A stretch of DNA of 64,000 nt from contig OZ024743.1 in the NCBI GenBank assembly GCA_964016885.1, positions 287,060,001 through 287,124,000 of the forward strand. The letters run 5' to 3'. This document shows, piece after piece, positions 35,888 to 59,083 of this stretch; the stretch's first letter is position 1, and every line of letters starts with the position of its first letter. The notes beneath the pieces were generated by a model. That model saw nothing but the letters and a program-made list of their open reading frames with translations. It was not told the DNA's origin and searched no databases. The DNA is from Eledone cirrhosa. Its lineage: Eukaryota. The translations under genes were made by a program, and so were the position numbers.

Positions 35888-36941
35888 GTATGTATGTATG
35901 TATGTATGTATGTATGTATGTATGTATGTATGTATGTACGTATGCATGTGTGTGTGTTCGTATGTACCACCATTTCACCACCATTGCTCATTGCTTCTTT
36001 TTGTTGTCATTTCTGTTGAAGTTGTTCTTGTAACTGTTGTAAAAGTTGACGTTGTCCTTATTTTCATCTTCTTTTATTTCTTTTGTTTTTCTTTTATCTC
36101 CCTAGGGAATTCGTTGACAAGCTTCTTTTATTTATTTTCTTCGTTTTCTTCATTCAAATTCATTCACACTGGCTGTCTAAGAGACGTACAAATATGACTT
36201 ATAAAACTTACCAAACTAAAGGGGCTTCCAGCGCCCCCCAAATCTTCAAACGCCCCGTAACGCTCCCTTGCTCCAAAACGACCTCCGTTGAGAACCTTTA
36301 ATGTAGACTATTGCTTTCTACAATCCCCCTTGGGGTCCTACAGACACTTACTCGCTCTCTCTTTCACTCAATTTCTATCTCTTGGTCTCTCTCTTAACCA
36401 AGCCAGTGAAGTTCATGAAGTTTTCTTGGTAAATACAATTTAATTCTACTTTTACAAACAACGTCCATAATTGGTTATCTTGTAGTTGCCCGCGTTAAAT
36501 TATTATTTTTTTAATGTAATTAAGTAAGTTATTATTAATTAAATTTTAAATTATTTAATTTTTTTAAAACAATTTTAAGAAAAGTAAATAAGAAACAAAT
36601 AAAAATTTTTTTTTTTTTTTTTGTAACCATCGTTACAACTTTGTGGGCCCCAAGGATCACACAAACCGTGTGGAAGGAAAGTCAAATTCCGTGCCATGAG
36701 AGGAACAAGCGAGGCACTTTTCGGCACTCACCTTCAAGAGTTTGGTGCCGTGCAATTAAAAAAAAGAAAAATCTTCGCTAATATTCTATATTGGATAGGA
36801 CATTATTATGATGTATAATAGACACTTTTTAATATTATAATTTATGATTTAAAAACAAAAATTAACAAAAATCAAAAAAAAAAATTAAATAATTTAAAAT
36901 TTAATTAATAATAACTTTCTTACTGAATTACATTTAATAAT

Positions 36942-37253
36942 TGTTTCTACTTTAGGCACAAGGCCAGCAATTACCCAGTGCATTACTGGTACTTTATTTT
37001 ATCGACCCCGTAAGGATGAAAGGCAAAGTCAACCTCGGCGGGATTTGAACTCAGATCGTAAAGGGACGTAACTATGCTGGAAAGCATGGCGTCCGACCCT
37101 CTACCGATACTGCCAATCCACCGCCCTTAATTACATTTAATAATAATAATTGTTTCTACTTTTGGCACAAGGCCAGTAAATACCCAGTGTACTACTGGTA
37201 CTTTCTTTTATCGACCCCGTAAGGATGAAAGGCAAAGTTAATCTCGGCGGATA
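36942..37253 (-). mobile_element. One full and one truncated SINE inserted serially at the same site
   Basis: TSD AATTACATTTAATAAT at 36926-36941 and 37129-37144; TACATTTAATAAT again at ~37254. Confidence 0.85.
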
Positions 37254-37258
37254 TACAT

Positions 37259-37296
<38 letters not shown>

Positions 37297-37297
<1 letters not shown>

Positions 37298-40200
37298 TTT
37301 TCTTTATTAACCACAAGGGTTTACATAAAGTAGACATTAAGGACAGTACAGGACAATACAGGACGGTACAAATGGGCATTTCTGCGTGTAAAAAACAAAA
37401 ACAGAGGATGTAACAAAAAATAACAATGAAAAATTCCCCAATAGGGGGGAGACTTCGGAGGGACATTTGTGGAGAAAGCCCAGTAAAAGGCCACAGTGAC
37501 CCTGACCACCAAGGCAAGTGCCCTCTCCCAGTTTTCCACCTTTAATTTACAGATACGTACTCAGAGTAGGCCCATTCACTCGGGCCATTCTTGCTTCTCT
37601 CACCCATCTTTCAACAAAATGCTGGGAAGAGAGCAGAGCACTTCCCTCTCTACTCTGATTTTCCTTTTCAAATGAAATTTGAAAAAGTCAATCAGGGTAT
37701 CACCGAAGAGGTAAGTGCTCGTCTTCAGCCCTTTCAAACGTGTCCACCATACTATCTCTTTCGCCATGGCCACCAGGCAGATAAAAACTGCCTGCCCTTC
37801 CCGGCTAAAGGAAGAGGGCGGGGCAATCCTCACGAAGGACTCAGATGATAGCCGGATCCGTCCTACACGCGACAGCAGGTGTTCGACATAAACCCACAAG
37901 TCAGCAATTTTCGGACACTGGACGAGTGCGTGCAGGACGGTTTCGTCGCCCTGCGCGCATCTCGGACATGCCAGGCTGACGGCACCTCCATTCCTGTAGA
38001 GTTTATCTCGAACTGGCAAGGCTCCTCGGTAGCACTGCCAGGCCAGAGATTTCTGGAAGTTGTCCATAGGTCCCGGCCCGAAAGTTCTTCCGAAGAGATT
38101 GGCTAGTTGATTTTCGTCGACGCCTAGAGTTTCCCCAAGTACGTCGTCGCTCTTCCCCTCCACTAATCCTCTATAGAACGCCGAGGTGGAGTTTCCACCG
38201 ATCACATTGCCCGATTGGTCGAGGGCTGTGAGCGCCTGAAGACATTCCAGTCTCCAAGCGCTCCCTCTCGGTCTTCGCTTGACCCAGGACTGCAGCTCCG
38301 TCAAGGAAACGAGCTGGGGAAATACGTGTCTAGCAAACGGCGACCACACCTGATCACCGTCGAGGAAGAGGTGGAGATGTCGTAGCCTGAGCGCGTGTCA
38401 GCGCATCATCAGCCACGGCATTCCCAGCCCTCCACGTAGCGGGTGTTGACAGCAGATGGACCGCCTGACCATCGGAGCGCGTCCCTTCCACAAAAAGCGA
38501 AAGAGCAAACGCTCCAGCGCAGTCAGGCGGGGCTTAGGACAAGGTACGACGGTCAGGCGGTAGCAGATGACAGACGCGATGTACGCGTTAGCCACCTCCG
38601 CTCGACCTTTCAGGGATAGCTTCCTCTCCGCCCATTTCTGGGTGAGAGAAGCCACCCTGCTCGTCACCTCGTCCCAGTTTTTGTCCATCTGGAGGTCCGG
38701 ACCAAACCAGACCCCTAGCAATTTAACCCGTCCGTCCGTCCAGCGTCCGACGACGCTGTTGGACGGCATGGACCTGCCTCTCCGGGTGCCGAGCTGCAGG
38801 CTCACTGACTTTTCCTGGTTGATCATTGCTCCTGTCACCGCTTCGTATTCTCTTAGTGTAGTGCCGATCGCCTCGATGTGTTTGGCGTTCGACACCACTA
38901 CGGTGACATCGTCCGCATGTGCTGACACGGATCTTCCGCATCCTAGTTCGCGCGGGACGCCCCTCAACGTCTCCAGTTTGTGCAGTAATGGCTCGAGAGT
39001 CAATACGTACAAGAGGGACGAGAGGGGTCATCCTTGGCGGACCGAGCGCATGATGTTGAACGGTTCCGAAAGGTGACCGTTCACTCTCACCACAGAGCAG
39101 ATGTCGCTGTGCGTGGCAGCGATCCAGCCTCTGAAGAGGGGCCCAAAGCCAGCCGCCCTCAGGACTGCCGCTAGATAAGGATGGTCGACCCTATCGAAAG
39201 CTTTCGACTGATCTAAATTGATCAAGGACCCACCCGTGCCAGGTTCCCTAGCTACCCTCTCTACGATGTATCGCATGAGGTGGAGGTTGTCGTGGATGGA
39301 TCTGTCGGGAATGGCGCATGTCTGCGCCTCTCCCACCAGACCACCAACGACAAGCGCCAACCTCTTTGCTAGCACCTTGGCCAAAATCTTGAACTCTGTG
39401 TTTAGCAGAGTTATGGGCCTGAAATTATCTATGTTATCCCTCTTGTTCGGATCCTTTCTCAACAATGCCACAGCTCCTCGGCTCACAGAGCTGGGAATTC
39501 TCCCGTTCTGTTGCCAGTTGCAGTAGACGTCCGCCAAGAGGCCTCCGAACAAGTCTGGCATCTGTACGTAAAGTTCATAGGGCAGACCATCCAAACCAGG
39601 CGATTTACCCCTTGTGCAGCCAGTCATTGCCTCCCGTACTTCAGCGGCTGTTATCGGCTTTTCGCAACACTTCGCCTCAGTGGCCGAGAGCCGCGGCAGT
39701 CCGTCGAGGTAGACACTAAAGTCCATCCCTCTACCCGGCCCCCCGCTGCCCCCGAACAGCTGAGCGAAGTGTCGCTGAAAAGCTTCACACATTTGCCCGG
39801 GATCGAGTAGCATGCGCCCGTCGTGGTCCACCAAAGACTTGAACGTGGATTTGTTGCCACGACGCGCCTCCGCCAGTCGAGCCCATTGAACGGCTTTCGT
39901 CCCCTCGTGTCTGAGAGCACGCACCCTAGCTCTGACAACGCAGCCTTCGTGCTTTGCATTGAAGAATTGGTCAAGGGCCAATTTCGCCGCAAGTACGTCG
40001 GTCGCGATGCCTTTGCTAAGCGCCTCGTCTAATTTTCTAACTAGTTCTCCCTCTGCTCTATTTTTCTCTATTGCTAAAGCCTTACTAAACCTAATGGATT
40101 CTATTCTAATCGCTCTTTTCAGAGCAAACCACCACTTGTTGTTGACGATGGCCCCTGTCAACGCCCGCTTAACTAGTTCGCTAATCCGGTCTATGTAGGC

Positions 40201-42740
40201 CTTGCGCGCTGGTAAGGACGCGTTTAGCTTCCAGTAGCCGGGTCCTCGTCTATGAAGCCTATCTAAGTCAAGCACACAGATCACGAATTTGTGGTCCGTG
40301 TAGCTGACTATCTTGAATTGTGGACAGCCTATGCTAGACCTATCTATTTTCCTACAAAATATTCTATCTAGATATTATCTGGATGACCCTATGCGATTTG
40401 TCCAAGTCCACATTGGCACATTCGGGAAATCCAATCGGTACCTGTCAGACAGTTCAAAACGCCTGAGCAGGTTGGTGAGGCTCTTGCACCCTCCACCCCT
40501 ATCCGCTAATCCCACACAGTCCCAGCGTGAATCTAAGATCCCGTTCCAGTCGCCCACTAACACTAAAGAGCGGAACGTTCCAAGAAAGGTCTCCAGACGC
40601 CGGAAGAAATCAGGCCGCCCTGCTCCTGTCGGGGCATAGACGGCCACTAGCCTGAAAGCTTGCCCGTCTCCGCTGGTCACGTCCAGCACCACCAACTTAC
40701 CCTCTGGGTCCAGGAAGATGGCCCGTATGGCGAGATCCAAACCTCTCCGAAAAAGCACAGCAACTCCACCCCCCGATCCAGGACGGCTGGGAGATGCGTA
40801 CACATCGTAGCCGCCGAAGATCGGTGCCAAGGCCCGTGCTTCGGAGATTCTGGTCTCACTGATGGCCACTACATCTATGTTTAGTGACCTGAGGTCGTTG
40901 AGCAGGGGACCCTGCTTCCATGACGACCCCAAGCCACGCGCATTTATGCTGCCTATTCTGAGTGAGGTCATGTTTAAAATAGAGTGGAAAAGATGGGAAA
41001 GACCACTTACCGTACTTTTTGTAGAGGAAGGATGGTTTTTTCCATCCCTTTTCACTTGATCGTCTGGTGAAGGGACCGTTGAATCGTCCCTTCGGCTGGT
41101 CGTCGGCTCTTCTATGGGTATGTCCGAATATACTCTCCGGTTGAGAGTCCCTCCTAGGTCTCTGAAATCACCAACTGCGTTGGGGAATTTCGTTTTAATG
41201 TTTGTGTATTGTTTCTGTGCTATTTTTAGCAGTCTTATGTTAGTTGGCGTTTTGATTGGTGCTGGTATTATGTAGTCGTGCTGTGAAATGTCTGTGTGTT
41301 CAATTATGTAAGTCATTAGTTTCTTGTTGTGTGTATTTATTGCCGTGCATTTGTTTTTCTGGGGGTGGGGTGTGGTTCTACTATTTTCTTGTCGTTGTTG
41401 CTGGGTGTGTGTGTTTTGTTGTTGTGTTTGAGATGTTGGTGCTTGTGGTGTTGAAGGTGTTGTTGTTGTTGGCGGTGGGGTTGTCACCGGTGGTGATGGT
41501 GGTGCTAGTGTGGGTGGTGATGGTGTTGGTGGTGTTGCTGCTGTGAGTCTCTTTGCAGTATCCTTTACCCTTTTTTCATTTCTTTCCTCCCTTTTCGAAG
41601 GCGACGATGCGCTGCTTCTGCGTTTGTGCCTTCTTACGACCTTTTGCCATCCCTCTCCCACCTCACACTCCATGTTTGATTCTGTGAGGTCGGGGAGGGG
41701 TACCAGCTCCACTCTTTCACTTGTTGTTGTTGGTGATGTTTGCACTGGAGTCTCTGTTGCAGCTGCATTTGGTATTACTGTTGTTGTTGTTAATACTTCC
41801 ACTGCTGCTGCTGTTCTTGATTTCCGTGGCGTGGGTATGGGTGCCACGGACCTATCGTTCCTGGTTGCCGCTTGTCCTGTTGCTGATAGCCGTGGAGCCG
41901 GTTTCGGAAGGAGGGGGGTTTTCTCCTTTCTCATGGTCTTCTCGTTGCAGAAGGCCCTGAGGTTAGTCTTCGACCCACAGCGAAAGCATTTCGGGCGTTT
42001 GCCCTCAACACTTATGGGCAGTTGAGTGCCGTTATCGAAGTCTATCACATCCGGGATAGCTTCGATGCACTCCTGGTTGGTTTGGATTAACATCTCAATG
42101 GAGGTGCCGACCCAATCTTCTCTTACTTTTTTCTGTACTTGCAGTACAGTTGTTTTGTCCTCGATTCCGACGAGGACAGACGCGGCCAGCCAAGAAGGGG
42201 CCATCCCGGGAGAGGGGGGGGGGGTCAGTTTGACCCTCACAATTTTTTGCCCGCAGTAGGAGGGCACCAACACCATTTCCTTGCTCCTTGGGGTCACTAA
42301 GGATTGAGCCTTTGCCTCCTGGGGTGTGGCAAAAAGCACGTCTACGGTGGCATATTTCTTGCCTCGGGTGATGTGCGTTTTCCGCTGCCACACAGACCCT
42401 AAGGCTTTTTGTATTTGAGCCTCTGTGGCTCTTTCAACCCTACGGGATTTTGTGCTTACTGTACGGTACGTGACCGTACAGTGCTGTTGGGTTTTGAAAA
42501 ATGTTTCGGCTGCCTTGCAGATTGCTCGGTGTCCGGTTTTTGTCACCATCTTCTTCGCTTCCTCTAATTCGTCATTTGTTATGAGGATGGTTTCCAGGTT
42601 CTTTGCGATACCTGCAAACGAGATTGGTTTTTCTTTGCTGCTGCTGTTGTTGTTGTTGTTGTTGTCGTCAGAGCTGCTGTTATTTTTGTTGTTGCTGCAG
42701 GTACTACGACTACTGCCGCCGCCGCTGTTGCTGTGGTTGT

Positions 42741-42774
<34 letters not shown>

Positions 42775-43353
42775 AATGCTGTTGTTGTTTATGCTGCTGC
42801 TGATGTTGTTGCGGCTGCTACTGTTGTTTTCCTTGTCACTGTTGCTGCTGCTGCTGTTATTACGGCTGCTACTTCTATTATTCCTGACGTCAGACGAATG
42901 AAATGGGTTTTCGTATTTCCCGCACACCTTTTTCGTCGTCGTCGTGGAGAAATCTTGCACGCTTTGCACGTGATTTTTCTTTTCTGGCGTCGCTTGCGAA
43001 AGAGAAGGGGGGGGGGGAGAGAGACACATTTAGAGAAGGGAGGGAGAGAGACAATCTTCTCTCTGCTGTAGTGACGATTGAGGAAGAAGAAGACGGAATG
43101 AGTGGGAGTGACCTATGAAAATTCTTTTTCGTAGCCTTGTTTTTTTTTTGTTTAATATAAATATTGGGCACAAAACCCCAATAAGCGGTTATTTAACCCC
43201 GAAGGGCCAAATAACGGGCAGAAAGACCCCTCTCACGAGCAGGAGGGTGTTTTTGTCTACAATTTGGTTAAAGTTTTAAACAATTTACAATTGTTATAGC
43301 GGTCAAAATTTACAATACCTTACAGAGCCGAGCCTCCGTCAACCATAGCATTC
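37297..43353 (-). mobile_element. Full-length Tx1/L1-like LINE, copy 1 (defective)
   Basis: ORF1 (RRM-like region, CFRCGSKTNLRAFC knuckle), APE endonuclease (SINARGL, ISET, VYAP, GDWN, YLDRI, TDHK), RT and CxxC..HxxxxC; stops at 40375, 39028 and 38398; HADD replaces YADD; (AAT)n on both flanks. Confidence 0.93.
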
Positions 43354-43386
<33 letters not shown>

Positions 43387-44096
43387 GGGGAAGGTGGTGG
43401 TATCACTAGACAATATTAATAAACAATATTAATATTTAATTTTGGATCAGGAATGTTAGAGCCGAAAAGGAGGAAAATGGCAAAATGACTAAATAGCTAA
43501 ATAGCTAAATGTTGCACAGTGGACAGAGAAGATAATTTCACCACCAACACCACCACCACTACCACGCTAAAAACTCTGGTCAAGTTACCTCAACTTCTAT
43601 TTCTACTTCAACTTCAACACCATCACTACAGTACTACGATCACATCACCACCACCACTGCCTCATTATCGCTACCGCCGCTATTCTCTCCCACTACCTCC
43701 TGCTACATCGTAGTGTCCCCACTAAAAGAGGAAGGCATCAAAATATATAAATAGACTGATTTGATGACCCGGTCAAAAAATTAAAAAAAAAAATCAAAAT
43801 CAAAGCAGCACAGCAACAACGAAAAACGTAAAGAAAAGAAAAATGAAAAGAAAAACAAACAGACGGACAGAGAAGGGAAGGGAAAAGCTAAGTCAGACAT
43901 TCAAACATTACATTACAATGAAACTTATGCTTATTCTTTGGGGGGGGGGGGGGGCTGTTTGTTTGTTTATTTATGTTCGTCTACAGCATAATAGTGCCAC
44001 ACAAGAATCACCGGGAGTGACGAAATCACCGGAGGTGATGAAATCACCGGTGGTTATGTAACCATACATTCACTAATCCTCGATAAGAGTGTTTAA

Positions 44097-45995
44097 ATGT
44101 CGAACCTAAAGAGTTCGAATAACGGTGAAGTGGAGACTAGAATGTCATGGGACAGACTCTCACCCAGCAGGTGTTCCCTGGTTCAGCAGCAGGGACCTGA
44201 CTGTCAACCAAATACTGCTGGTGTCGGAGGAAGAAGAAGGAAAGGGACCAGAACCAACTGGACGAAAGAATTGAATAGAACTGTTATGCAATGTTACCTG
44301 AAGAGTAACCCCAAGGAGAAAGGCTATAGCAAACGGATGCATAACATCTGGAACGAGATTGGTCTATTTAAATTAGATTAACAAAAATTGGCCGGGCAGG
44401 CTCGGGTAATAAGAACTAATGGGTGGATAAGCTAGCTGAAACTGGAGGGACTGAGCAGAGAGATTAGCTTGGAAATGAAGAGTGGAGTATGCCAGGCAAA
44501 CGAGCCAGTGGGAAATGAAGGTGAAGAGGTTGAGAGAACGGAGGAACCATCCGAAGCAGACAAAGATCTGAATGCTGAAATAAATAATTGTTTCTAATTT
44601 AGGCACAAGGCCAGCAATACCCAGTGCATTACTGGTACTTTATTTTATCGACCCCGTAAGGATGAAAGGCAAAGTCAACCTCGGCGGGATTTGAACTGAG
44701 ATCGTAAAGGGACGTAACTATGCTGGAAAGCATGGCGTCCGACTCTCTACCGATACTGCCAATCCACCGATCCTGAAATTATATAATACCTGGAACAAAG
44801 ATACGGCCATTGAGGAGATGAATGCTGACGGGCTAGGACAAGATTTGGTTGATATCCTAAACTTAGTGGTAGATGAATTGAACAATGATAGTGGGAAACC
44901 TATGAACCTAAGATTTGTAGACAGGAAAAAGTTAAAAGAAACAACAGCTAAGGTAAACAAAGTCATCCCATACCTTGAGGCGAGGAGCCTTCACCAGTGC
45001 AACAATATCCTCAAAGCAACAGAAAATACGGTGAGGAAATTACTTGGTATAAAAGCGAGAGGAAACAACAAACAAGAAAGATCAGAGCCTTGGTGGAAGA
45101 AACGACTGAATGGTCAAATCAGGGAAATGAGAAATGACATTGGAAAGCTTGAGTCCCTACTGAATGGGACACTAAAAAAACATAGACACTAAAAATAGAC
45201 TGGAAATAAAGTACAAAACTAGGAAGAAAAAGCTAAATATTATCATAGAGGAACTGAAGCAACGCATTGTAGCAAAGAGTGCAAAAATTAGGCGATACGA
45301 GAGCAGAGTCAGTCAGTATAGACAGAACCGCATGTTTGACAACAACCAGAAGATGCTGTTTGGACAGCTTGAAGGGAAAGAAAGAGGCAACGACTTGATC
45401 CCTGAGGCGGAACAAACTAAGACATTCTGGAAAGGAATATGGGAGCAGGATGTTAAACATAATGACCAGGCAGTGTGGATTGAGACAGTGCAGAAGAAGA
45501 TTAGTGAACAGGCACACCAACAAACTGATTTGAGTATCACAGTTGAAACTCTTAAGGGGCAGGCCAAAAAACTAACCAACTGGAAATCACCAGGCCCAGA
45601 TGGTGTGCAGGGGTATTGGATTAAAAATATAACATCTCTCCACCCCAAACTGACAACCATGTTCAATGACTGCTTGATGTTAGGTGAGGTACCAGTGTGG
45701 TTGACAAAGGGTACCACAGTTCTGATAATGAAAGACCGAATCAAGGGTAATGATGTTACCAACTATAGACCTATCACATGCCTGTCCGTAATGTGGAAAC
45801 TGTTGACAAGCATTATGTCTGAGGAAATCTACCATCACCTCCACACAAACAACTTGTTACCGGACGAACAGAAAGGATGCCGAAAGAAGTCCCGTGGTAC
45901 AAAGGACCAGTTACTTATTGATAAGATGGTAATGAGGAATTGCAAGAGGAGACACACTGGTCTTGCCATGGGATGGATAGACTACAAAAAGGCAT
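44097..45995 (+). mobile_element. 3'-truncated R4/Dong-clade retrotransposon, copy 1, interrupted by a SINE at ~44582-44772
   Basis: N-terminal Myb-like RTNWTKELNRTVMQCY..GYSKRM; PWWKKRL; NWKSPGPDG, YRPITCL, EQKGC, GWIDYKKA; internal stops. Confidence 0.87.
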
Positions 45996-46188: not shown

Positions 46189-46238
<50 letters not shown>

Positions 46239-46499: not shown

Positions 46500-49232
46500 T
46501 TACAGATATATACTCAGAGTCGGCCCATTCACTCGGGCCATTCTTGCTTCTCTCACCCATCTTTCAACAAAATGCTGGGAAGAGAGCACTTCCTTCTCTA
46601 CTCTGATTTTCCTTTTCAAATGAAATTTGAAAAAGTCAATCAGAGCATCACCGAAGAGGTAAGTGCTCGTCTTCAGCCCTTTCAAACGTGTCCACCATAC
46701 TATCTCTTTCGCCATGGCCACCAGACAGATAAAAACTGCCTGCCCTTCCCGGCTAAAGGAGGAGGGCGGGGCAATCCTCACGATAGACTCAGATGATAGC
46801 TGGATCCGTCCCAAACGCGACAGCAGGTGTTCGACATAAACCCACAAGTCAGCAATTTTCGGACACTGGACGAGTGCGTGCAGGACGGTTTCGTCGCCCT
46901 GCGCGCATCTCGGACATGCCCGGCTGACGGCACCTCCATGCCTGTAGAGTTTATCCCGAACTGGCAAGGCTCCTCGGTAGCACTGCCAGGCCAGAGATTT
47001 CTGGAAGTTGTCCATAGGCCCCGGCCCGAAAGTTCTTCCGAAGAGATTGGCTAGTTGATTTTCGTCGACGCCTAGAGTTTCCCCAAGTACGTCGTCGCTC
47101 TTCCCCTCCACTAATCCTCTATAGAACGCCGAGGTGGAGTTTCCACCGATCACATTGCCCGATTGGTCGAGGGCTGTGAGCGCCTGAAGACATTCCAGTC
47201 TCCAGGCGCTCCCTCTCGGTCTTCGCTTGACCCAGGACTGCAGCTCCGTCAAGGAAACGAGCTGGGGAAAAACGCGTCTAGCAAACGGCGACCACACCTG
47301 ATCACCGTCGAGGAAGAGGTGGAGATGTCGTAGCCTGAGCGCGTGCCTGCGCATCATCAGCCACGGCATGCCCAGCCCTCCACGTAGCGGGTGTTGACAA
47401 CAGATGGACCGCCTGACCATCGGAGCACGTCCCATCCACAAAAAGCGAAAGAGCAAACGCTCCAGCGCAGTCAGGCGAGGCTTAGGACAAGGTACGACGG
47501 TTAGGCGGTAGCAGATGACAGACGCGATGTACGCGTTAGCCACCTCCGCTCGACCTTTCAGGGATAGCTTCCTCTCCGCCCATTTCTGGGTGAGAGAAGC
47601 CACCCTGCTCGTCACCTCGTCCCAGTTTTTGTCCGTCTGGAGGTCCGGACCGAACCAGACCCCTAGCAATTTAACCGGTCCGTCCGTCCAGCGCCCGACG
47701 ACGCTGTTGGACGGCATGGACCTGCCTCTCCAGGTGCCGAGCTGCAGGCCCACTGACTTTTCCTGGTTGATCATTGCTCCTGTCACCGCTTCGTATTCTC
47801 TTAGTGTAGTGCCGATCGCCTCGATGTGTTTGGCGTTCGACACCACTACGGTGACATCGTCCGCATATGCTGACACGGATCTTCCGCATCCTAGTTCGCG
47901 CGGGACTCCCCTCAACGTCTCCAGTTTGTGCAGTAATGGCTCGAGAGTCAATACGTACAAGAGGGACGAGAGGGGACATCCTTGGCGGACCGAGCGCATG
48001 ATGTTGAACGGTTCCGACAGGTGACCGTTCACTCTCACCACAGAGCAGATGTCGCTGTGCATGGCAGCGATCCAGCCTCTGAAGACGGGCCCAAAGCCAG
48101 CCGCCCTCAGGACTGCCGCTAGGTAACGATGGTCGACCCTATCGAAAGCTTTCGACTGATCTAAATTGATCAAGGACCCACCCGTGCCAGGTTCCCTAGC
48201 TACCCTCTCTACGATGTATCGCATGAGGTGGAGGTTGTCGTGGATGGATCTGTCGGGAATGGCGCATGTCTGCGCCTCTCCCACCAGACCACCAACGACA
48301 AGCGCCAACCTCTTTGCTAGCACCTTGGCCAAAATCTTAAACTCTGTGTTTAGCAGAGTTATGGGCCGGAAATTGTCTATGTTATCCCCCTTGTTCGGAT
48401 CCTTTCTCAGCAGTGCCACCGCTCCTCGGCTCACAGAACTGGGAATTCTCCCGTTCTGTTGCCAGTTGCAGTAGACGTCCGCCAAGAGGCCTCCGAACAA
48501 GTCTGGCATCTGTACGTAAAGTTCATAGGGCAGACCATCCAAACCAGGCGATTTACCCCTTGTGCAGCCAGTCATTGCCTCCCGTACTTCAGCGGCTGTT
48601 ATCGGCTTTTCGCAACACTTCGCCTCAGTGGCCGAGAGCCGCGGCAGTCCGTCGAGGTAGACACTAAAGTCCATCCCTCTACCCGGCCCCCCGCTGCCCC
48701 CGAACAGCTGAGCGAAGTGTCGCTGAAAAGCTTCACACATTTGCCCGGGATCGAGTAGCATGCGCCCGTCGTGGTCCACCAAAGACTTGAACGTGGATTT
48801 GTTGCCACGACGCGCCTCCGCCAGTCGAGCCCATTGAACGGCTTTCGTCCCCTCGTGTCTGAGAGCACGCACCCTAGCTCTGACAACGCAGCCTTCGTGC
48901 TTTGCATTGAAGAATTGGTCAAGGGCCAATTTCGCCGCAAGTACGTCGGTCGCGATGCCTTTGCTAAGCGCCTCGTCTAATTTTCTAACTAGTTCTCCCT
49001 CTGCTCTATTTTTCTCTATTGCTAAAGCCTTACTAAACCTAATGGATTCTATTCTAATCGCTCTTTTCAGAGCAAACCACCACTTGTTGTTGACGATGGC
49101 CCCTGTCAACGCCCGCTTAACTAGTTCGCTAATCCGGTCTATGTAGGCCTTGCGCGCTGGTAAGGACGCGTTTAGCTTCCAGTAGCCGGGTCCTCGTCTA
49201 TGAAGCCTATCTAAGTCAAGCACACAGATCAC
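46500..49232 (-). CDS. Tx1-like ORF2 part: end of endonuclease, RT and C-terminal zinc finger (910 aa)
   Basis: KSPGLDG, FRPITLLN, LDQSKAFDRV, QGCPLS, YADD, CPRC..ETVLHALVQC. Confidence 0.9.
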   Translation of the reverse strand: MICVLDLDRLHRRGPGYWKLNASLPARKAYIDRISELVKRALTGAIVNNKWWFALKRAIRIESIRFSKALAIEKNRAEGELVRKLDEALSKGIATDVLAAKLALDQFFNAKHEGCVVRARVRALRHEGTKAVQWARLAEARRGNKSTFKSLVDHDGRMLLDPGQMCEAFQRHFAQLFGGSGGPGRGMDFSVYLDGLPRLSATEAKCCEKPITAAEVREAMTGCTRGKSPGLDGLPYELYVQMPDLFGGLLADVYCNWQQNGRIPSSVSRGAVALLRKDPNKGDNIDNFRPITLLNTEFKILAKVLAKRLALVVGGLVGEAQTCAIPDRSIHDNLHLMRYIVERVAREPGTGGSLINLDQSKAFDRVDHRYLAAVLRAAGFGPVFRGWIAAMHSDICSVVRVNGHLSEPFNIMRSVRQGCPLSSLLYVLTLEPLLHKLETLRGVPRELGCGRSVSAYADDVTVVVSNAKHIEAIGTTLREYEAVTGAMINQEKSVGLQLGTWRGRSMPSNSVVGRWTDGPVKLLGVWFGPDLQTDKNWDEVTSRVASLTQKWAERKLSLKGRAEVANAYIASVICYRLTVVPCPKPRLTALERLLFRFLWMGRAPMVRRSICCQHPLRGGLGMPWLMMRRHALRLRHLHLFLDGDQVWSPFARRVFPQLVSLTELQSWVKRRPRGSAWRLECLQALTALDQSGNVIGGNSTSAFYRGLVEGKSDDVLGETLGVDENQLANLFGRTFGPGPMDNFQKSLAWQCYRGALPVRDKLYRHGGAVSRACPRCAQGDETVLHALVQCPKIADLWVYVEHLLSRLGRIQLSSESIVRIAPPSSFSREGQAVFICLVAMAKEIVWWTRLKGLKTSTYLFGDALIDFFKFHLKRKIRVEKEVLSSQHFVERWVREARMARVNGPTLSIYL

Positions 49233-49322
49233 GAATTTGTGGTCCGTGTAGCTGACTATCTTGAATTGTGGACAGCCTATGCTAGACCTATCTATTTTCC
49301 TACAAAATATTCTATCTAGATA

Positions 49323-51685
49323 TTATCTGGATGACCCTAAGCGATTTGTCCAAGTCCACATTGGCACATTCGGGAAATCCAATCGGTACCTGTCAGACAG
49401 TTCAAAACGCCTGAGCAGGTTGGTGAGGCTCTTGCACCCTCCACCCCTATCCGCTAATCCCACACAGTCCCAGCGTGAATCTAAGATCCCGTTCCAGTCG
49501 CCCACTAACACTAAAGAGCGGAACGTTCCAAGAAAGGTCTCCAGACGCCGGAAGAAATCAGGCCGCCCTGCTCCTGTCGGGGCATAGACGGCCACTAGCC
49601 TGAAAGCTTGCCCGTCTCCGCTGGTCACGTCCAGCACCACCAACTTACCCTCTGGGTCCAGGAAGATGGCCCGTATGGCGAGATCCAAACCTCTCCGAAA
49701 AAGCACAGCAACTCCACCCCCCGATCCAGGACGGCTGGGAGATGCGTACACATCGTAGCCGCCGAAGATCGGTGCCAAGGCCCGTGCTTCGGAGATTCTG
49801 GTCTCACTGATGGCCACTACATCTATGTTTAGTGACCTGAGGTCGTTGAGCAGGGGACCCTGCTTCCATGACGACCCCAAGCCACGCGCATTTATGCTGC
49901 CTATTCTGAGTGAGGTCATGTTTAAAATAGAGTGGAAAAGATGGGAAAGACCACTTACCGTACTTTTTGTAGAGGAAGGATGGTTTTTTCCATCCCTTTT
50001 CACTTGATCGTCTGGTGAAGGGACCGTTGAATCGTCCCTTCGGCTGGTCGTCGGCTCTTCTATGGGTATGTCCGAATATACTCTCCGGTTGAGAGTCCCT
50101 CCTAGGTCTCTGAAATCACCAACTGCGTTGGGGAATTTCGTTTTAATGTTTGTGTATTGTTTCTGTGCTATTTTTAGCAGTCTTATGTTAGTTGGCGTTT
50201 TGATTGGTGCTGGTATTATGTAGTCGTGCTGTGAAATGTCTGTGTGTTCAATTATGTAAGTCATTAGTTTCTTGTTGTGTGTATTTATTGCCGTGCATTT
50301 GTTTTTCTGGGGGTGGGGTGTGGTTCTACTATTTTCTTGTCGTTGTTGCTGGGTGTGTGTGTTTTGTTGTTGTGTTTGAGATGTTGGTGCTTGTGGTGTT
50401 GAAGGTGTTGTTGTTGTTGGCGGTGGGGTTGTCACCGGTGGTGATGGTGGTGCTAGTGTGGGTGGTGATGGTGTTGGTGGTGTTGCTGCTGTGAGTCTCT
50501 TTGCAGTATCCTTTACCCTTTTTTCATTTCTTTCCTCCCTTTTCGAAGGCGACGATGCGCTGCTTCTGCGTTTGTGCCTTCTTACGACCTTTTGCCATCC
50601 CTCTCCCACCTCACACTCCATGTTTGATTCTGTGAGGTCGGGGAGGGGTACCAGCTCCACTCTTTCACTTGTTGTTGTTGGTGATGTTTGCACTGGAGTC
50701 TCTGTTGCAGCTGCATTTGGTATTACTGTTGTTGTTGTTAATACTTCCACTGCTGCTGCTGTTCTTGATTTCCGTGGCGTGGGTATGGGTGCCACGGACC
50801 TATCGTTCCTGGTTGCCGCTTGTCCTGTTGCTGATAGCCGTGGAGCCGGTTTCGGAAGGAGGGGGGTTTTCTCCTTTCTCATGGTCTTCTCGTTGCAGAA
50901 GGCCCTGAGGTTAGTCTTCGACCCACAGCGAAAGCATTTCGGGCGTTTGCCCTCAACACTTATGGGCAGTTGAGTGCCGTTATCGAAGTCTATCACATCC
51001 GGGATAGCTTCGATGCACTCCTGGTTGGTTTGGATTAACATCTCAATGGAGGTGCCGACCCAATCTTCTCTTACTTTTTTCTGTACTTGCAGTACAGTTG
51101 TTTTGTCCTCGATTCCGACGAGGACAGACGCGGCCAGCCAAGAAGGGGCCATCCCGGGAGAGGGGGGGGTCAGTTTGACCCTCACAATTTTTTGCCCGCA
51201 GTAGGAGGGCACCAACACCATTTCCTTGCTCCTTGGGGTCACTAAGGATTGAGCCTTTGCCTCCTGGGGTGTGGCAAAAAGCACGTCTACGGTGGCATAT
51301 TTCTTGCCTCGGGTGATGTGCGTTTTCCGCTGCCACACAGACCCTAAGGCTTTTTGTATTTGAGCCTCTGTGGCTCTTTCAACCCTACGGGATTTTGTGC
51401 TTACTGTACGGTACGTGACCGTACAGTGCTGTTGGGTTTTGAAAAATGTTTCGGCTGCCTTGCAGATTGCTCGGTGTCCGGTTTTTGTCACCATCTTCTT
51501 CGCTTCCTCTAATTCGTCATTTGTTATGAGGATGGTTTCCAGGTTCTTTGCGATACCTGCAAACGAGATTGGTTTTTCTTTGCTGCTGCTGTTGTTGTTG
51601 TTGTTGTTGTCGTCAGAGCTGCTGTTATTTTTGTTGTTGCTGCAGGTACTACGACTACTGCCGCCGCCGCTGTTGCTGTGGTTGT

Positions 51686-51719
<34 letters not shown>

Positions 51720-52115
51720 AATGCTGTTGTTGTTTATGCTGCTGCTGATGTTGTTGCGGCTGCTACTGTTGTTTTCCTTGTCACTGTTGCTGCTGCTGCT
51801 GTTATTACGGCTGCTACTTCTATTATTCCTGACGTCAGACGAATGAAATGGGTTTTCGTATTTCCCGCACACCTTTTTCGTCGTCGTCGTGGAGAAATCT
51901 TGCACGCTTTGCACGTGATTTTTCTTTTCTGGCGTCGCTTGCGAAAGAGAAGGGGGGGGGGAGAGAGACACATTTAGAGAAGGGAGGGAGAGAGACAATC
52001 TTCTCTCTGCTGTAGTGACGATTGAGGAAGAAGAAGACGGAATGAGTGGGAGTGACCTATGAAAATTCTTTTTCGTAGCCTTGTTTTTTTTTTGTTTAAT
52101 ATAAATATTGGGCAC
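49323..52115 (-). CDS. Tx1-like ORF1 fused in frame to the APE endonuclease (930 aa from a GTG; true start uncertain)
   Basis: N/S low-complexity region, RRM-like region, degenerate CCHC knuckle, P/T-rich linker, then MTSLRIGSINARGL. Confidence 0.8.
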
Positions 52116-52297
52116 AAAACCCCAATAAGCGGTTATTTAACCCCGAAGGGCCAAATAACGGGCAGAAAGACCCCTCTCACGAGCAGGAGGGTGTTTTTGT
52201 CTACAATTTGGTTAAAGTTTTAAACAATTTACAATTGTTATAGCGGTCAAAATTTACAATACCTTACAGAGCCGAGCCTCCGTCAACCATAGCATTC

Positions 52298-52330
<33 letters not shown>

Positions 52331-53037
52331 GGGGAAGGTGGTGGTATCACTAGACAATATTAATAAACAATATTAATATTTAATTTTGGATCAGGAATGT
52401 TAGAGCCGAAAAGGAGGAAAATGGCAAAATGACTAAATAGCTAAATAGCTAAATGTTGCACAGTGGACAGAGAAGATAATTTCACCACCAACACCACCAC
52501 CACTACCACGCTAAAAACTCTGGTCAAGTTACCTCAACTTCTATTTCTACTTCAACTTCAACACCATCACTACAGTACTACGATCACATCACCACCACCA
52601 CTGCCTCATTATCGCTACCGCCGCTATTCTCTCCCACTACCTCCTGCTACATCGTAGTGTCCCCACTAAAAGAGGAAGGCATCAAAATATATAAATAGAC
52701 TGATTTGATGACCCGGTCAAAAAATAAAAAAAAAAAATAAAAATCAAAGCAGCACAGCAACAACGAAAAACGTAAAGAAAAGAAAAATGAAAAGAAAAAC
52801 AAACAGACGGACAGAGAAGGGAAGGGAAAAGCTAAGTCAGACATTCAAACATTACATTACAATGAAACTTATGCTTATTCTTTGGGGGGGGGGGGCTGTT
52901 TGTTTGTTTATTTATGTTCGTCTACAGCATAATAGTGCCACACAAGAATCACCGGGAGTGACGAAATCACCGGAGGTGATGAAATCACCGGTGGTTATGT
53001 AACCATACATTCACTAATCCTCGATAAGAGTGTTTAA

Positions 53038-54936
53038 ATGTCGAACCTAAAGAGTTCGAATAACGGTGAAGTGGAGACTAGAATGTCATGGGACAGACTC
53101 TCACCCAGCAGGTGTTCCCTGGTTCAGCAGCAGGGACCTGACTGTCAACCAAATACTGCTGGTGTCGGAGGAAGAAGAAGGAAAGGGACCAGAACCAACT
53201 GGACGAAAGAATTGAATAGAACTGTTATGCAATGTTACCTGAAGAGTAACCCCAAGGAGAAAGGCTATAGCAAACGGATGCATAACATCTGGAACGAGAT
53301 TGGTCTATTTAAATTAGATTAACAAAAATTGGCCGGGCAGGCTCGGGTAATAAGAACTAATGGGTGGATAAGCTAGCTGAAACTGGAGGAACTGAGCAGA
53401 GAGATTAGCTTGGAAATGAAGAGTGGAGTATGCCAGGCAAACGAGCCAGTGGGAAATGAAGGTGAAGAGGTTGAGAGAACGGAGGAACCATCCGAAGCAG
53501 ACAAAGATCTGAATGCTGAAATAAATAATTGTTTCTAATTTAGGCACAAGGCCAGCAATACCCAGTGCATTACTGGTACTTTATTTTATCGACCCCGTAA
53601 GGATGAAAGGCAAAGTCAACCTCGGCGGGATTTGAACTGAGATCGTAAAGGGACGTAACTATGCTGGAAAGCATGGCGTCCGACTCTCTACCGATACTGC
53701 CAATCCACCGATCCTGAAATTATATAATACCTGGAACAAAGATACGGCCATTGAGGAGATGAATGCTGACGGGCTAGGACAAGATTTGGTTGATATCCTA
53801 AACTTAGTGGTAGATGAATTGAACAATGATAGTGGGAAACCTATGAACCTAAGATTTGTAGACAGGAAAAAGTTAAAAGAAACAACAGCTAAGGTAAACA
53901 AAGTCATCCCATACCTTGAGGCGAGGAGCCTTCACCAGTGCAACAATATCCTCAAAGCAACAGAAAATACGGTGAGGAAATTACTTGGTATAAAAGCGAG
54001 AGGAAACAACAAACAAGAAAGATCAGAGCCTTGGTGGAAGAAACGACTGAATGGTCAAATCAGGGAAATGAGAAATGACATTGGAAAGCTTGAGTCCCTA
54101 CTGAATGGGACACTAAAAAAACATAGACACTAAAAATAGACTGGAAATAAAGTACAAAACTAGGAAGAAAAAGCTAAATATTATCATAGAGGAACTGAAG
54201 CAACGCATTGTAGCAAAGAGTGCAAAAATTAGGCGATACGAGAGCAGAGTCAGTCAGTATAGACAGAACCGCATGTTTGACAACAACCAGAAGATGCTGT
54301 TTGGACAGCTTGAAGGGAAAGAAAGAGGCAACGACTTGATCCCTGAGGCGGAACAAACTAAGACATTCTGGAAAGGAATATGGGAGCAGGATGTTAAACA
54401 TAATGACCAGGCAGTGTGGATTGAGACAGTGCAGAAGAAGATTAGTGAACAGGCACACCAACAAACTGATTTGAGTATCACAGTTGAAACTCTTAAGGGG
54501 CAGGCCAAAAAACTAACCAACTGGAAATCACCAGGCCCAGATGGTGTGCAGGGGTATTGGATTAAAAATATAACATCTCTCCACCCCAAACTGACAACCA
54601 TGTTCAATGACTGCTTGATGTTAGGTGAGGTACCAGTGTGGTTGACAAAGGGTACCACAGTTCTGATAATGAAAGACCGAATCAAGGGTAATGATGTTAC
54701 CAACTATAGACCTATCACATGCCTGTCCGTAATGTGGAAACTGTTGACAAGCATTATGTCTGAGGAAATCTACCATCACCTCCACACAAACAACTTGTTA
54801 CCGGACGAACAGAAAGGATGCCGAAAGAAGTCCCGTGGTACAAAGGACCAGTTACTTATTGATAAGATGGTAATGAGGAATTGCAAGAGGAGACACACTG
54901 GTCTTGCCATGGGATGGATAGACTACAAAAAGGCAT
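53038..54936 (+). mobile_element. 3'-truncated R4/Dong-clade retrotransposon, copy 2 (duplicate of 44097-45995)
   Basis: Essentially identical ORFs and the same SINE insertion. Confidence 0.87.
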
Positions 54937-55129
54937 TGTTTGATAATTATAAAAGTTTAAATTTTGGGCTCAAGGCCCCAATCTTTTTGGGTGTCCTTTT
55001 CAGATAACAATGTATGTGCACTTATATACAGTTAACAATAAAAAATTTCCATGAATGGCAATTTTAAACAACTGAAAATAACAAACCTTTGCGGAGCTCA
55101 CGATGATACGATTTACTACGTAGGTCGCC

Positions 55130-55192
<63 letters not shown>

Positions 55193-55194
<2 letters not shown>

Positions 55195-58100
55195 TTTCTT
55201 TATTGGCCACAAGGGCTGACATCAAGAAAAACATTACAGACGGCACAGGACGGTACAGGACGGTACGATGTGGGTTTTGTGCGTGTAAATATTTTTATTA
55301 TTTATATAAGAAAAGAAGAAAAAAAGGACATAGAAACATATATATATATAAACAATAAAAATGAAAATTGAAACAATGAAAAATTCCCCAATAGGAGGGA
55401 AACCTCCGAGGATTACTCGTGGCGAAAACCACACAAAAGACCACGGCCACCCTGACCACCAGGGCAAGCGCCCTCTCTCAATTTTTCCATTTCTCAAACT
55501 ACAGACGTATATTCAGAGTGGTCTCGTTCACTCGGACCATTCTCGCTACATTCATCCACCTTTCAACAAACTTGCTAGAAGGCAGCACTTGCCTCTCCAC
55601 CCTGATTTTCCTCTTCAAGTGAAACTTGAAAAAGTTAATTAGGGATTCGCCGAAGAGGAAAGTGTCTGTCTTTAACCCTTTTAACCTTGTCCACCACACA
55701 ATCTCTTTCGCTATGGCCACCAGGCAGATGAAAACCGCCTGCCCTTCCTCCTCGAAGGAAGACGGCGAGACCATCTGCACAATGGACTCAGTCGACAACC
55801 GGATCAGTCCTACACGCGACAGCAACTGTTCGACATAGCTCCACAAGTCAGCAATGCTCGGGCACTCAACGAGTGCGTGCACGACGGTTTCGTCGCTCTG
55901 CGCGCATCTCGGACAGGCTCGGCTGACGGCACTTCCGTGCCTGTAGAGCTTATTTCGAACCGGCAGCGCTCCCCGGTAGCACTGACAGGCCAGGGATTTT
56001 TGGAAGTTATCCATAGGCCCTGGGCTGAAAGTTCTCCGGAAGAGAGCAAACAGCTGATCTCCTTCGACGTCCAGGATCTCTCCGAGAATGTCGTCGCTCT
56101 TCCCCTCCACTAGTTCTCTATAGAACGCCGAGGTGGATGTTCCACCGATACTGGTGCCCAGCTGGCAGAGGGCAGTGAGCGCCTGGAGACATTCCAGTTT
56201 CCAAGCGCTATCCCTCGGTCTTTTTCTGACCCAGGACTGCAGCTCCGTCAAGGAGACGAGCTGTGGGAAAACGTTCCTGGCGAAAGGCGACCACACCTGT
56301 TCACCATCAAGGAAGCACCAGAGATGTCGCAGCCTCAGCGCATGTTTGCGCATCATCAGCCATGGCATGCCCAGTCCTCCGCGCAACGGGTGTTGACAGC
56401 AGATAGATCGCCTGACCATGGGAGCGCGTCCCTTCCACAAAAAGCGGAAGAGGAGGTGCTTCATTTTGGTGAGAGTTGGGCCGGAGCAAGGGTCGACGGT
56501 GAGGCGGTAGCAGATGACGGATGCGATGTACGCATTCGCCACCTCCGCCCGGCCTTTCAGGGACAGCTTCCTCTCGGCCCATTTCTGGGTGAGGGAGGCC
56601 ACCCTGCTCGTCACCTCGTTCCAGTTTTTCTCCATCTGGAGGTGCGGTCCGAACCAGACCCTGAGCAATTTAACCGGTCCGTCCGTCCAACGCCCCACGA
56701 CGCTGTCGGACGGCATTGACTTGCCTCTCCAGGTGCCGAGCTGCAAGCCCACCGACTTTTCCTGGTTTATCTTGGCTCCTGTCACCGCTTCGTATTCCCA
56801 GATGCTCGGTGCCGAGCATCTGGACGTGTCTGGTGCTCGACACCACCACGGTGACGTCGTCGGTGTAAGCTGACTCGGATTTCCCGCATCCTAGTTCGCG
56901 TGGGACGCCCCTCATCGCCCCCAGTTTGTGCAGTAACGGCTCGAGAGCCAATACGTACAAGAGGGATGAGAGGGGACAACCCTGGCGGACTAACCGCATG
57001 ATGCTGAACGGCTGCGACAGGTGACCGTTCACCCTCACAACTGAGCAGATGTCGCTGTACATCGCTGCGATCCAACCCCTGAAAACGGGCCCGAAACCCG
57101 CTGCCTCGAGGACCGCCGCCAGGTACCGATGGTCGAGCCGATCGAATGCTTTGGATTGATCCAAGTTGATCAGGGCCCCCACCCGTGCCAGGTTCCTTAA
57201 CCACCCTCTCTATGATGTATCGCATGAGGTGGAGGTTGTCGTGTATGGATCTGTCCGGAATGGCGCATATCTGCGCCTCTCCCACCAGACCCTTGACAAC
57301 AAGCGCCAACCTCGTTGATAACACCTTGAACTCTGCGTTTAGCAGGGTTATGGGCCTAAAATTATCGATAACATCCCCCTTGTTCGGGTCTTTTCTCAGC
57401 AGCGCCACTGCTCCCCGGCTCACAAAACTGGGAATGCTCCCGTTCTGCTGCCAGTTGCAGTAGACGTCTGCCAAGAGGTCACCGAACAAGTCTGGCATAA
57501 ATGCATAAAGCTCGTAGGGCAGACCATCCAAACCTGGCGATTTTCACCGGCTGTTATTGGTTTTTCGCAACACTGTGCTGCGGTCGTCGAGAGCCGAGGC
57601 AGTCCGTCGAGGTATGCACTGAAGTCCATGCCCCGATCCGGGCCGCCGCTGCTCCCGAACAGTTCAGCAAAGTGCTGTTGAAAAGCTTCACACATCCGCT
57701 CGGGTTCGAGCATCACGCACCCGTTTTGGTCAGACAAAGACCGAATTGTGGCTTTGTTGCCACGTCGCGCCTCTGCCACCCGGGCCCATTGGACGGCTTT
57801 TGTCCCCTCGTGTTTCAGAGCACACGCTCTAGCTCTGACAACGCAGCATTCGTGTTTTGCGTTGAAGAATTGGTCGAGTGCCAATCTCGCCGCAAGCACG
57901 TCGGTTGCGATGCCTGTCCTAAACGCCTCTTCTAGCTTTCTGACTAGCTCTCCCTCTACTCTATTTTCCTCTATCACTACTCTTTTGCTAAACCTAATCG
58001 ACTCTACTTTAATTGCCCTTTTCAGGGCGAACCACCATCTGTTGTTGACGACCGCTCCCGTCAACGCCCGCTTAACTAATACGCTAATCCGGTCTCTGTA

Positions 58101-58959
58101 GGCTTTGCGCGCCGGGAGAGACGCGTTCAGCTTCCAGTAACCGGGCCCTTGTCTATGAAGTCTGTCTATGTCGATCTCACAGATCACAATTTTGTAGCCT
58201 GTGTAGTCGACTATTTTAAATTGTGGACAACTTATACTTGACTTATCTGTTCTCTGCAGAATACCCTATCGAGATACGATCTGGATTACCCGATGCGGTT
58301 TGTCCATGTCCACATTGGCACATTCGGGTGATCCAGTCGATACCTGTCAGACAGTTCAAAACGTCTGAGCAGGTTGGTGAGGCTCTTGCACCGTCCTCCC
58401 CTATCCACTAGCCCCACACGATTCCAGCGTGCATCCAAGATACCGTTCCAGTCGCCCACTAACACTAAAGAGCGGAACGTTCCAAGAAAGGTCTCTAGAC
58501 ATCTGAAGAAATTTGGCCGTCCTGCCCCTGTTGAGGCGTAGACGGCTACTAGCCTGAAAGCATTGCTTTCGCTGCTGGTCACGTCCAGCACCACCGACTT
58601 ACCTTCTGGATCTAGGAAGATGGCCCGTATGGCAAGATCCAAGCCTCTCCGAAAAAGGACGGCAACCCCTCCCCCGATCCTGGACGGCTGGGAGATGCGT
58701 ATACATCGTAGCCGCCGAAGATTGGTGCGAAGGCCTGTGCTTCGGAGATTCTGGTCTCGCTGATGGCCACCACATCTATGTTTAGTGACCTGAGGTCGTT
58801 GAGCAGGTGTCCCTGCTTCCAAGATGACCCCTGGCCACGTGCATTTATACTGCCTATTCTGAGTACGGCCATGTTGGATGAGAAACGGGGCAAGTGAGAA
58901 AGGGTCACTTAACTTGATCGTGTGGTGAAGGGACAGTAGAACCGTCCCTTTGGCTGGTC
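55193..58959 (-). mobile_element. 5'-truncated, diverged Tx1-like LINE, copy 3 (sister subfamily, frameshifted)
   Basis: ORF2 fragments homologous to copies 1 and 2 with many substitutions; YTDD; (AAT)n on both flanks. Confidence 0.92.
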
Positions 58960-58995
<36 letters not shown>

Positions 58996-59083
58996 TTAAC
59001 GCAGCCAACTACAAGATAATCCCATAATTATTGTGTATTTTTCGTATAACTTCGGCGTGAACTATTTTCAATAAATTAATAAT

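What the first reader, a model, noticed from the sequence alone, without database searches (positions are those of the whole stretch)
36465..59029. Merlin transposon whose TIR contains a (TAA) seed that collected 22 kb of retroelements
Seen: matching 8-bp TSDs 22.5 kb apart, long AT-rich TIRs, and an IS1595/Merlin-like transposase C-terminal remnant. The right TIR is broken exactly at its short taataat stretch by two SINEs, three Tx1-like LINEs and two spacers containing R4 fragments, while the left TIR is untouched. Inference: the TIR supplies a microsatellite landing pad that is duplicated and lengthened by each insertion, a self-reinforcing trap. The outer ends remain, so the block could in principle move as a unit.
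Basis: partly seen in the sequence, partly recalled or inferred. Interest (0 to 1): 0.75.

Follow-up and report, generated by a model that had tools for sequence, protein, structure and literature searches.

The report
Dead Merlin hosting an AAT retrotransposon pile-up
An old, broken 0.5-kb DNA transposon here holds a 22-kb stack of retrotransposons that sit in AAT repeats all over this genome and not specially in this transposon, and about 6.5 kb of the stack is one recent local copy, likely made when a new insertion switched over to copying its older neighbour.

Summary
The anatomy is real: 8-bp TSD CCATAATT at 36465 and 59022, Merlin-type TIRs, a transposase remnant, and a right TIR split at its AAT linker by 22,044 bp. 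The Merlin is not a family-wide trap: 0 of 51 other TIR ends hold a retroelement at that linker, though 10 have 4 or more ATT units, and 132 retroelement loci held no Merlin. The Tx1-like LINEs sit in (AAT)n genome-wide (26 of 29 against 0.7% background), and the Dong/R4-like LINE ends in (AAT)n on the opposite strand (15 of 15). The two 'spacers' are one truncated R4 element copied once. LINE B matches a currently expanding subfamily (0.09%) up to 48438, then matches its neighbour A and the spacer (4 substitutions in 6.45 kb). The likely cause is an insertion that switched template, as described for human L1. The block has not moved as a unit: the family is old (11% divergence) and no second copy was found. 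The scan reported this AAT guild at eight or more other places in this genome.

The parts
36465..36472 (.). Left 8-bp TSD CCATAATT
36473..36942 (+). Non-autonomous Merlin: left TIR (GG end, linker ATT x3 + T run), transposase C-terminal remnant at about 36627-36815, inner arm of right TIR 36878-36942
36943..37125 (-). SINE 1, full length, young (99.4% to copies elsewhere), 15-bp TSD AATTACATTTAATAA
37147..37250 (-). SINE 2, 5'-truncated, best match among fetched copies 94% (likely older); TSD again includes TACATTTAATAA
37260..37296 (.). (AAT)12 tract
37297..43353 (-). Tx1-like LINE A, full length, older lineage (2-5% from other copies), ORF2 with three stops
43354..43385 (.). (AAT)10.7 tract
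43386..45996 (+). R4/Dong-like RLE LINE remnant, 5'-truncated, about 1.8 kb missing at the 3' end; SINE (minus strand) inside at 44583-44769
45997..46188 (-). 5' UTR end of another Tx1-like LINE, joined to the R4 remnant by a likely deletion (2-nt microhomology)
46189..46236 (.). (AAT)16 tract
46237..48438 (-). 3' part of LINE B: member of a currently expanding subfamily (2-4 differences in 2204 bp from 14 of 14 copies)
48439..48786 (.). Switch interval between young-subfamily sequence and copy of LINE A
48787..55129 (.). Recent copy of the 5' part of LINE A, tract 52298-52329, R4 remnant with SINE (53524-53710) and Tx1 5' end; 4 substitutions and 3 poly-G indels against the original
55130..55192 (.). 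(AAT)21 tract
55193..58959 (-). Tx1-like LINE C, second subfamily (about 81% to A), 5'-truncated, frameshifted
58960..59021 (.). (AAT)12 tract running into the outer end of the right TIR (58987-59021)
59022..59029 (.). Right 8-bp TSD CCATAATT

Best explanation
This is an old non-autonomous Merlin whose right TIR was split at a short AAT run by a stack of SINEs, Tx1-like and Dong/R4-like LINEs that sit in (AAT)n throughout the genome, and the stack was then lengthened by about 8.9 kb in one recent step, likely a new Tx1-like insertion that switched to copying its older neighbour. Steps: (1) shown: the TIR linker varies in length and reaches 4-7 ATT units in copies without any insertion. (2) Shown: SINEs sit at its edge with TSDs that include TIR bases. 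(3) Shown as a pattern, mechanism inferred: Tx1-like elements (minus strand) and a Dong-like element (plus strand) entered the tract, each leaving (AAT)n on both sides by target duplication plus tail. (4) Inferred: a deletion fused the R4 element to the 5' end of a fourth Tx1-like copy. (5) Shown as a chimera, mechanism inferred: a young-subfamily cDNA primed at the tract left of LINE C, ran 2.2-2.55 kb, annealed to LINE A about 8.9 kb away and copied A's 5' part and the R4 remnant before rejoining.
For: Linker census: 51 other TIR ends, 10 with 4 or more ATT, none with a SINE or LINE at the linker. A-type 3' ends: 26 of 29 have 3 or more AAT within 45 nt against 73 of 9800 random positions; 16 of 29 face a SINE head, R4 tail or Tx1 5' end across the tract. 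C-type: 10 of 10 located 3' ends abut AAT runs (11 loci examined). R4 3' ends: 15 of 15 located (20 loci) are followed by 3 or more AAT; 10 of 20 R4 loci have a Tx1-like LINE within the 8 kb fetched. No Merlin hit in 132 partly overlapping retroelement loci; the window's own locus was found as control. Chimera: 15 of 15 informative sites between 47900 and 48438 match the young subfamily; 24 of 25 from 48787 to 49900 match A, and one is private. A and B share 36 sites absent from 16 other copies, all right of 39742. The 5' part groups with A's lineage at 13 of 17 sites. The two clocks agree: 0.09% to the young family and 0.06% between the duplicated halves. Precedent of the same architecture in human L1: PMC8087252 (passages).
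Against: The sequence cannot separate template switching from insertion followed soon after by unequal crossover with an allele lacking B. None of 20 young copies shows a comparable switch to an older 5' part, so it is rare. No read spans the switch; contigs of public runs were too short to test it, so an assembly error is not excluded. SINE insertions do recur at fixed motifs of this Merlin (8 events in 7 of 30 copies; 10 of 36 junctions, p = 0.02, if one tandem triple is counted as three), so the element is somewhat SINE-prone. The lineage groups were chosen from the 3' part, so only the 5' result is independent. Endonuclease specificity was not tested; the order of the older insertions is uncertain.
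Confidence: 0.72

Rival explanations
1. Same nest, but the 8.9-kb gain came in two steps: B inserted as an ordinary copy, then unequal crossover between B and LINE A on an allele lacking B duplicated A's 5' part and the R4 remnant.
For: Gives exactly the same final structure; A and young copies are about 98% identical, with a 348-bp identical interval at the switch.
Against: Needs two events within the same short time (0.09% and 0.06%), and B polymorphic at the time.
Confidence: 0.12
2. The second unit is an assembly artefact that joins two haplotypes inside the LINE.
For: The halves differ by only 4 substitutions, two of them beside A runs, and three poly-G length changes; no spanning read was available.
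Against: A plain haplotype duplicate would repeat A's 3' part too; instead that part is a different, young subfamily with a sharp switch.
Confidence: 0.1
3. One reading: the Merlin TIR is a dedicated self-reinforcing trap and the 22.5-kb block can move as a composite transposon.
For: Both outer ends and a perfect TSD survive; 10 of 51 other TIR ends carry 4 or more ATT; Tx1 families that target DNA transposons are known (PMC4494074); unchecked scan notes report giant Merlins of other families in this genome.
Against: 0 of 51 other ends hit at this linker; no Merlin beside 132 retroelement loci; one copy only, next best match 82% or lower over the body; median family divergence 11% against 0.1-3% for most of the cargo; other TIRs on the intact Merlin ORFs.
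Confidence: 0.06

Closest known systems
Merlin superfamily (IS1016/IS1595-related; PMC8101967, passages read)
   Same: GG-ended TIRs, 8-bp TSD, DDE_Tnp_IS1595-related C-terminal remnant
   Different: Non-autonomous 0.5-kb derivative of an old family; right end reads GA; carries a retroelement stack
Dong (R4 clade; TAA microsatellites in Bombyx, Anopheles, Biomphalaria; PMC3812793, passages; Dong-R4 listed as recently active in Octopus vulgaris, PMC13282606, passages)
   Same: Single RT with C-terminal CCHC and PD..D..K nuclease motif, (AAT)n at the 3' end
   Different: Here it shares tracts with an unrelated APE-type LINE on the opposite strand; clade not confirmed by a tree
Microsatellite-specific Tx1 LINEs Kibi (TC)n, Koshi (TTC)n, crocodilian (TTCC)n/(TTTC)n (PMC4494074, passages and section 15)
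   Same: ORF1 + EN-RT-zf ORF2, flanked by the microsatellite on both sides
   Different: Target is (ATT)n, which I did not find listed for Tx1 or the passages read
Tx1L in Tx1D of Xenopus; crocodilian Tx1-Mar in Mariner-N4 (PMC4494074, PMC6719617, passages)
   Same: A Tx1-type LINE lying inside a non-autonomous DNA transposon
   Different: Those families prefer the transposon; here 0 of 132 loci are in this Merlin
Chimeric L1 insertions by retrotransposition plus SDSA-like copying (CDKL5/PPEF1 case in PMC8087252, passages; templated insertions in bioRxiv 10.1101/2024.08.27.596794, passages; Gilbert 2005 cited there, not seen)
   Same: 3' end from an active element, 5' part and its upstream flank copied from a nearby older element
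   Different: Invertebrate Tx1-like element; the template is the neighbour in the same stack, so a whole nest module and its landing tracts are duplicated

Membership tests
Merlin | TIRs ending in 5'-GG | tested here: met
   Left end GGTTATC; right end GATTATC, also seen in L014 and L016; most copies GG
Merlin | 8-9 bp TSD | tested here: met
   Perfect 8 bp here; 10 of 14 other two-ended copies match at 6 or more of 8 (2 perfect, 7 at 7/8, 1 at 6/8; read)
Merlin | DDE_Tnp_IS1595 transposase homology | tested here: met
   Remnant alone: no Pfam hit. Indirect: 41% over 46 aa to PF12762-positive ORFs; sister copy L026 135 aa at E 2e-21
Merlin | Intact DDE triad or an autonomous partner with the same TIRs | tested here: not met
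   Only broken copies at 96% or less over short pieces; intact ORFs with readable ends have GGCATAGG/GGCATACG/GGCATACC TIRs; only the top 15 of 150 scored PF12762 hits were fetched, 9 of them checked for TIRs
Tx1 clade | ORF1 plus ORF2 with APE endonuclease, RT, zinc knuckle | tested here: met
   Pfam PF03372, PF00078, PF13966; young copies ORF1 713-728 aa where unbroken, ORF2 frame 1195-1204 aa; closest solved structure L1 ORF2p
Tx1 clade | Placement with Tx1 references in an RT tree | not testable with these tools
Tx1 clade | Target specificity (more than 20% of flanks, criterion in PMC4494074) | tested here: met
   26 of 29 3' ends; both sides in 18 of 18 full-length young copies
R4/Dong | RT with C-terminal CCHC and restriction-like nuclease; closer to R2 than L1 | tested here: met
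   Sister copy L070: CRICG..H..SEC and RPD..IVD..EK motifs; R2 E 1e-31 against L1 E 1e-13. The window remnant lacks this part
R4/Dong | (TAA)n target | tested here: inconclusive
   15 of 15 3' ends followed by (AAT)n, which may be tail alone; 5' flanks not systematically scored
R4/Dong | Placement with Dong in an RT tree | not tested
   No reference sequence on hand
Composite (cargo-carrying) DNA transposon | The loaded element occurs at two or more sites with different TSDs | tested here: not met
   Only the window itself matches at high identity
Transposon-targeting Tx1 (Tx1L/Tx1D type) | LINE copies lie preferentially in the DNA transposon | tested here: not met
   0 of 132 loci; 0 of 51 TIR ends

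The most novel reading that the evidence does not exclude
AAT-targeted stacks grow by a second route: a new cDNA recombines into the older neighbour and duplicates whole multi-kb modules with their landing tracts, so abortive insertions still enlarge the stack; an active ATT-specific Tx1 family would then be a source of local tandem duplications in this genome.
Probability: 0.3. Interest if true: 0.6.

Novelty: new variant of a known kind. Interest (0 to 1): 0.36.

Why it matters
As a Merlin story it is ordinary: a dead element that happened to carry a short AAT run. What remains of value is (a) one more dated case of an ATT-seeking Tx1-like family and a Dong-like family sharing one microsatellite on opposite strands, with the unusual advantage that the outer TSD and TIR fix the pre-insertion site, so the seed and the whole gain (about 0.5 kb to 22.5 kb) can be read off; and (b) a clean chimeric insertion with local duplication, known from human L1, in an invertebrate, with a 348-bp switch interval that can be checked by PCR or long reads. 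The expanding subfamily (39 or more near-identical copies with intact ORFs) is ready material for an endonuclease target assay.

Tried and rejected
Pfam on the window's Merlin remnant: no hit; a short sister piece reached only E 0.07. Spacer as 3' or 5' transduction carried by the Tx1 family: rejected, the spacer is its own high-copy family with a different 5' flank elsewhere. Simple unequal crossover between two resident copies in cis: rejected, it would leave a third A-type copy before LINE C. Independent insertion of A and B: rejected, independent copies differ by 1.3% or more in that region (95 pairs) against 0.03% here. Second Merlin with a retro-nest: the 9-kb split at C2:341.1 Mb holds no Tx1 or R4 and looks Helitron-like. 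Public contigs laid on the locus: the left flank and left TIR are present exactly in one other sample, but pieces were too short to test the empty site or the duplication; no verdict. Naming the LINE clade by homologues: no informative names. The C27 tandem cluster of Merlin derivatives and two near-duplicate C2 copies (L007, L011) were left out of the TIR census, as were the A-variant TIR fragments that belong to another repeat; one doubled row (L158) was counted once, and the second end of L004 was missed by the script (intact). Gilbert 2005 was not available. No supplements were read; target lists in the supplements of PMC4494074 or in Repbase may already include an ATT-specific Tx1.
Full report
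Setting. The window is G000:C4:287060001-287124000 of a 3.0-Gb genome. A 69% protein match to Argonauta hians and my recall of the SINE suggest an octopod; this is not needed for the argument.

Observation. CCATAATT lies at 36465-36472 and 59022-59029. The outer TIRs differ at 3 of 35 bases, the inner arm of the right TIR ends at 36942, and 22,044 bp lie between the two halves. The rejoined element of about 0.5 kb belongs to a repeated family (207 matches from 40 of 113 candidates scored). Ten of 14 other two-ended copies keep an 8-bp TSD at 6 of 8 or better. The remnant has no Pfam hit alone but aligns to PF12762-positive ORFs of this genome (41% over 46 aa), and sister copy L026 does so over 135 aa at E 2e-21. 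These features fit Merlin as defined in PMC8101967 (passages). The family is old: median pairwise divergence 11% over 26 cores, nearest to the window 6.7%. I found no intact transposase of it.

What the insert is. From left to right: SINE 1 and a 5'-truncated SINE 2 (minus strand), whose TSDs repeat the TIR bases TACATTTAATAA; LINE A (6057 bp, minus); a 2.6-kb remnant of a high-copy RLE-type LINE on the plus strand with a SINE inside; 192 bp of the 5' end of another Tx1-like LINE, fused to it at 45996 (the same piece precedes C-type copies in 3 of 10 cases); LINE B; the same remnant again; and LINE C (about 81% to A, truncated). (AAT)n tracts of 10-21 units separate the LINEs.

The duplication. 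Units 37297-46188 and 46237-55129 differ by 2.3% in their first 2.2 kb and are then almost identical: 4 substitutions and 3 poly-G indels in 6.45 kb. Against 16 other long copies, A and B share 36 private sites, all right of 39742; independent copies differ by 1.3% or more there. B's 3' part has at least 39 near-identical copies genome-wide and differs from 14 of 14 examined at 2-4 of 2204 bases. Informative sites follow the young family to 48438 and A from 48787. The shared 5' part groups with A's lineage at 13 of 17 sites. So B is a chimera of a new insertion and a copy of A plus what lies 5' of A. The same layout is described for a human L1 insertion in CDKL5 and attributed to retrotransposition plus SDSA-like copying (PMC8087252, passages). 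Matching divergences (0.09% and 0.06%) favour one event, but insertion followed by unequal crossover gives the same product, and no read spans the switch. None of 20 young copies shows such a switch.

Is the TIR a trap? The linker between the outer and inner TIR is slippage-prone: T runs, GT runs, and 0-7 ATT units. Of 51 other TIR ends, 10 have 4 or more ATT and none holds a SINE, Tx1 or R4 there. Two hold DNA-type inserts: a second Merlin-like element in L009 and a 9-kb Helitron-like piece in L127/L128. Only the window's right TIR and L008 match the 31-nt expanded pattern exactly. SINEs do hit this family, but at two other motifs: the AATTAATAA site about 75 bp into the TIR (L005, L017, L026; a variant in L159) and the CATAATAA at the transposase stop (L026, L158, L161, L162). 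That is 8 events in 18.2 kb against 26 in 111 kb of flank, p = 0.10 (p = 0.02 if a tandem triple is counted as three). The SINE needs little: 66 of 76 junctions have 0-2 TAA units, and it hit the same AATAA site of the R4 element in L065.

The stack is a genome-wide habit. Of 29 A-type copies, 26 have 3 or more AAT at the 3' end (background 0.7%); 6 face a SINE head, 8 an R4 tail and 2 a Tx1 5' end. All 18 young copies with a located 5' end have (AAT)n on both sides, so it is a target and not only a tail. R4 copies end in (AAT)n on the other strand (15 of 15). No Merlin sequence was found in 132 such loci. At a background of about 0.7% per 45 nt there are on the order of 10^5 short AAT seeds in the genome (inference), against about ten in this Merlin family.

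Movement as a unit. Not seen: one copy, cargo far younger than the family, and intact Merlin ORFs with other TIRs. It is not excluded in principle; unchecked scan notes report giant Merlins of other families.

Known and new. Dong targeting of TAA is published (PMC3812793, passages). Tx1 families target (TC)n, (TTC)n, (TTCC)n or DNA transposons (PMC4494074). Dong-R4 and L1-Tx1 are listed as recently active in octopus (PMC13282606, passages). I found no paper on an ATT-specific Tx1 or on the antiparallel sharing in searches; subscription papers, supplements and Repbase were not seen. The scan has reported the guild at eight or more other places; I had reached that reading before the look-up and tested it here.

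Verdict. Real structure, ordinary Merlin, Merlin-specific trap not supported; a new variant of known microsatellite targeting, with a well-resolved chimeric duplication. Interest 0.36.

Noticed in passing
L134-L146 (e.g. C28:124.7-126.5 Mb, C18:5.7-9.6 Mb): A 40-bp variant of this Merlin's outer TIR sits inside another repeat with constant flanks at dozens of sites, including tandem clusters; likely a TIR fragment captured by another mobile element.
   Followed up: partly
C27:8.145-8.226 Mb (L021-L023, L027-L029, L165): Tandem cluster of rearranged derivatives of this Merlin with multiplied TIR arms and internal repeats.
   Followed up: no
L131:1240-2140, L025, L170: A 56-91 bp piece of the transposase gene is amplified into a minisatellite inside several copies.
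   Followed up: no
L009:1840-2680: A second Merlin-like element with different ends is nested in the TIR linker of this family.
   Followed up: partly
L127:1100-10000 and L128:1-190: A 9-kb insert that looks Helitron-like (label from recall) splits the right TIR linker of another copy; a related fragment lies in L131.
   Followed up: partly
L219-L252: A Tx1-like subfamily in current expansion, with intact ORFs, often in head-to-tail tandems about 6.05 kb apart; six of 20 copies share a more diverged block in the ORF1 region.
   Followed up: partly
L098, L177: Tx1-like copies next to (AAG)n tracts, suggesting some tolerance in the target.
   Followed up: no
window 33993-35580, minus strand: Fragments of another RLE-type LINE just left of the Merlin.
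   Followed up: no
window 59076-59174: A truncated SINE 47 bp outside the right TSD.
   Followed up: no
window 40375: In A and its copy, ORF1 runs in frame into the endonuclease domain and stops inside ORF2; young copies have separate ORFs, so this is decay of A.
   Followed up: yes
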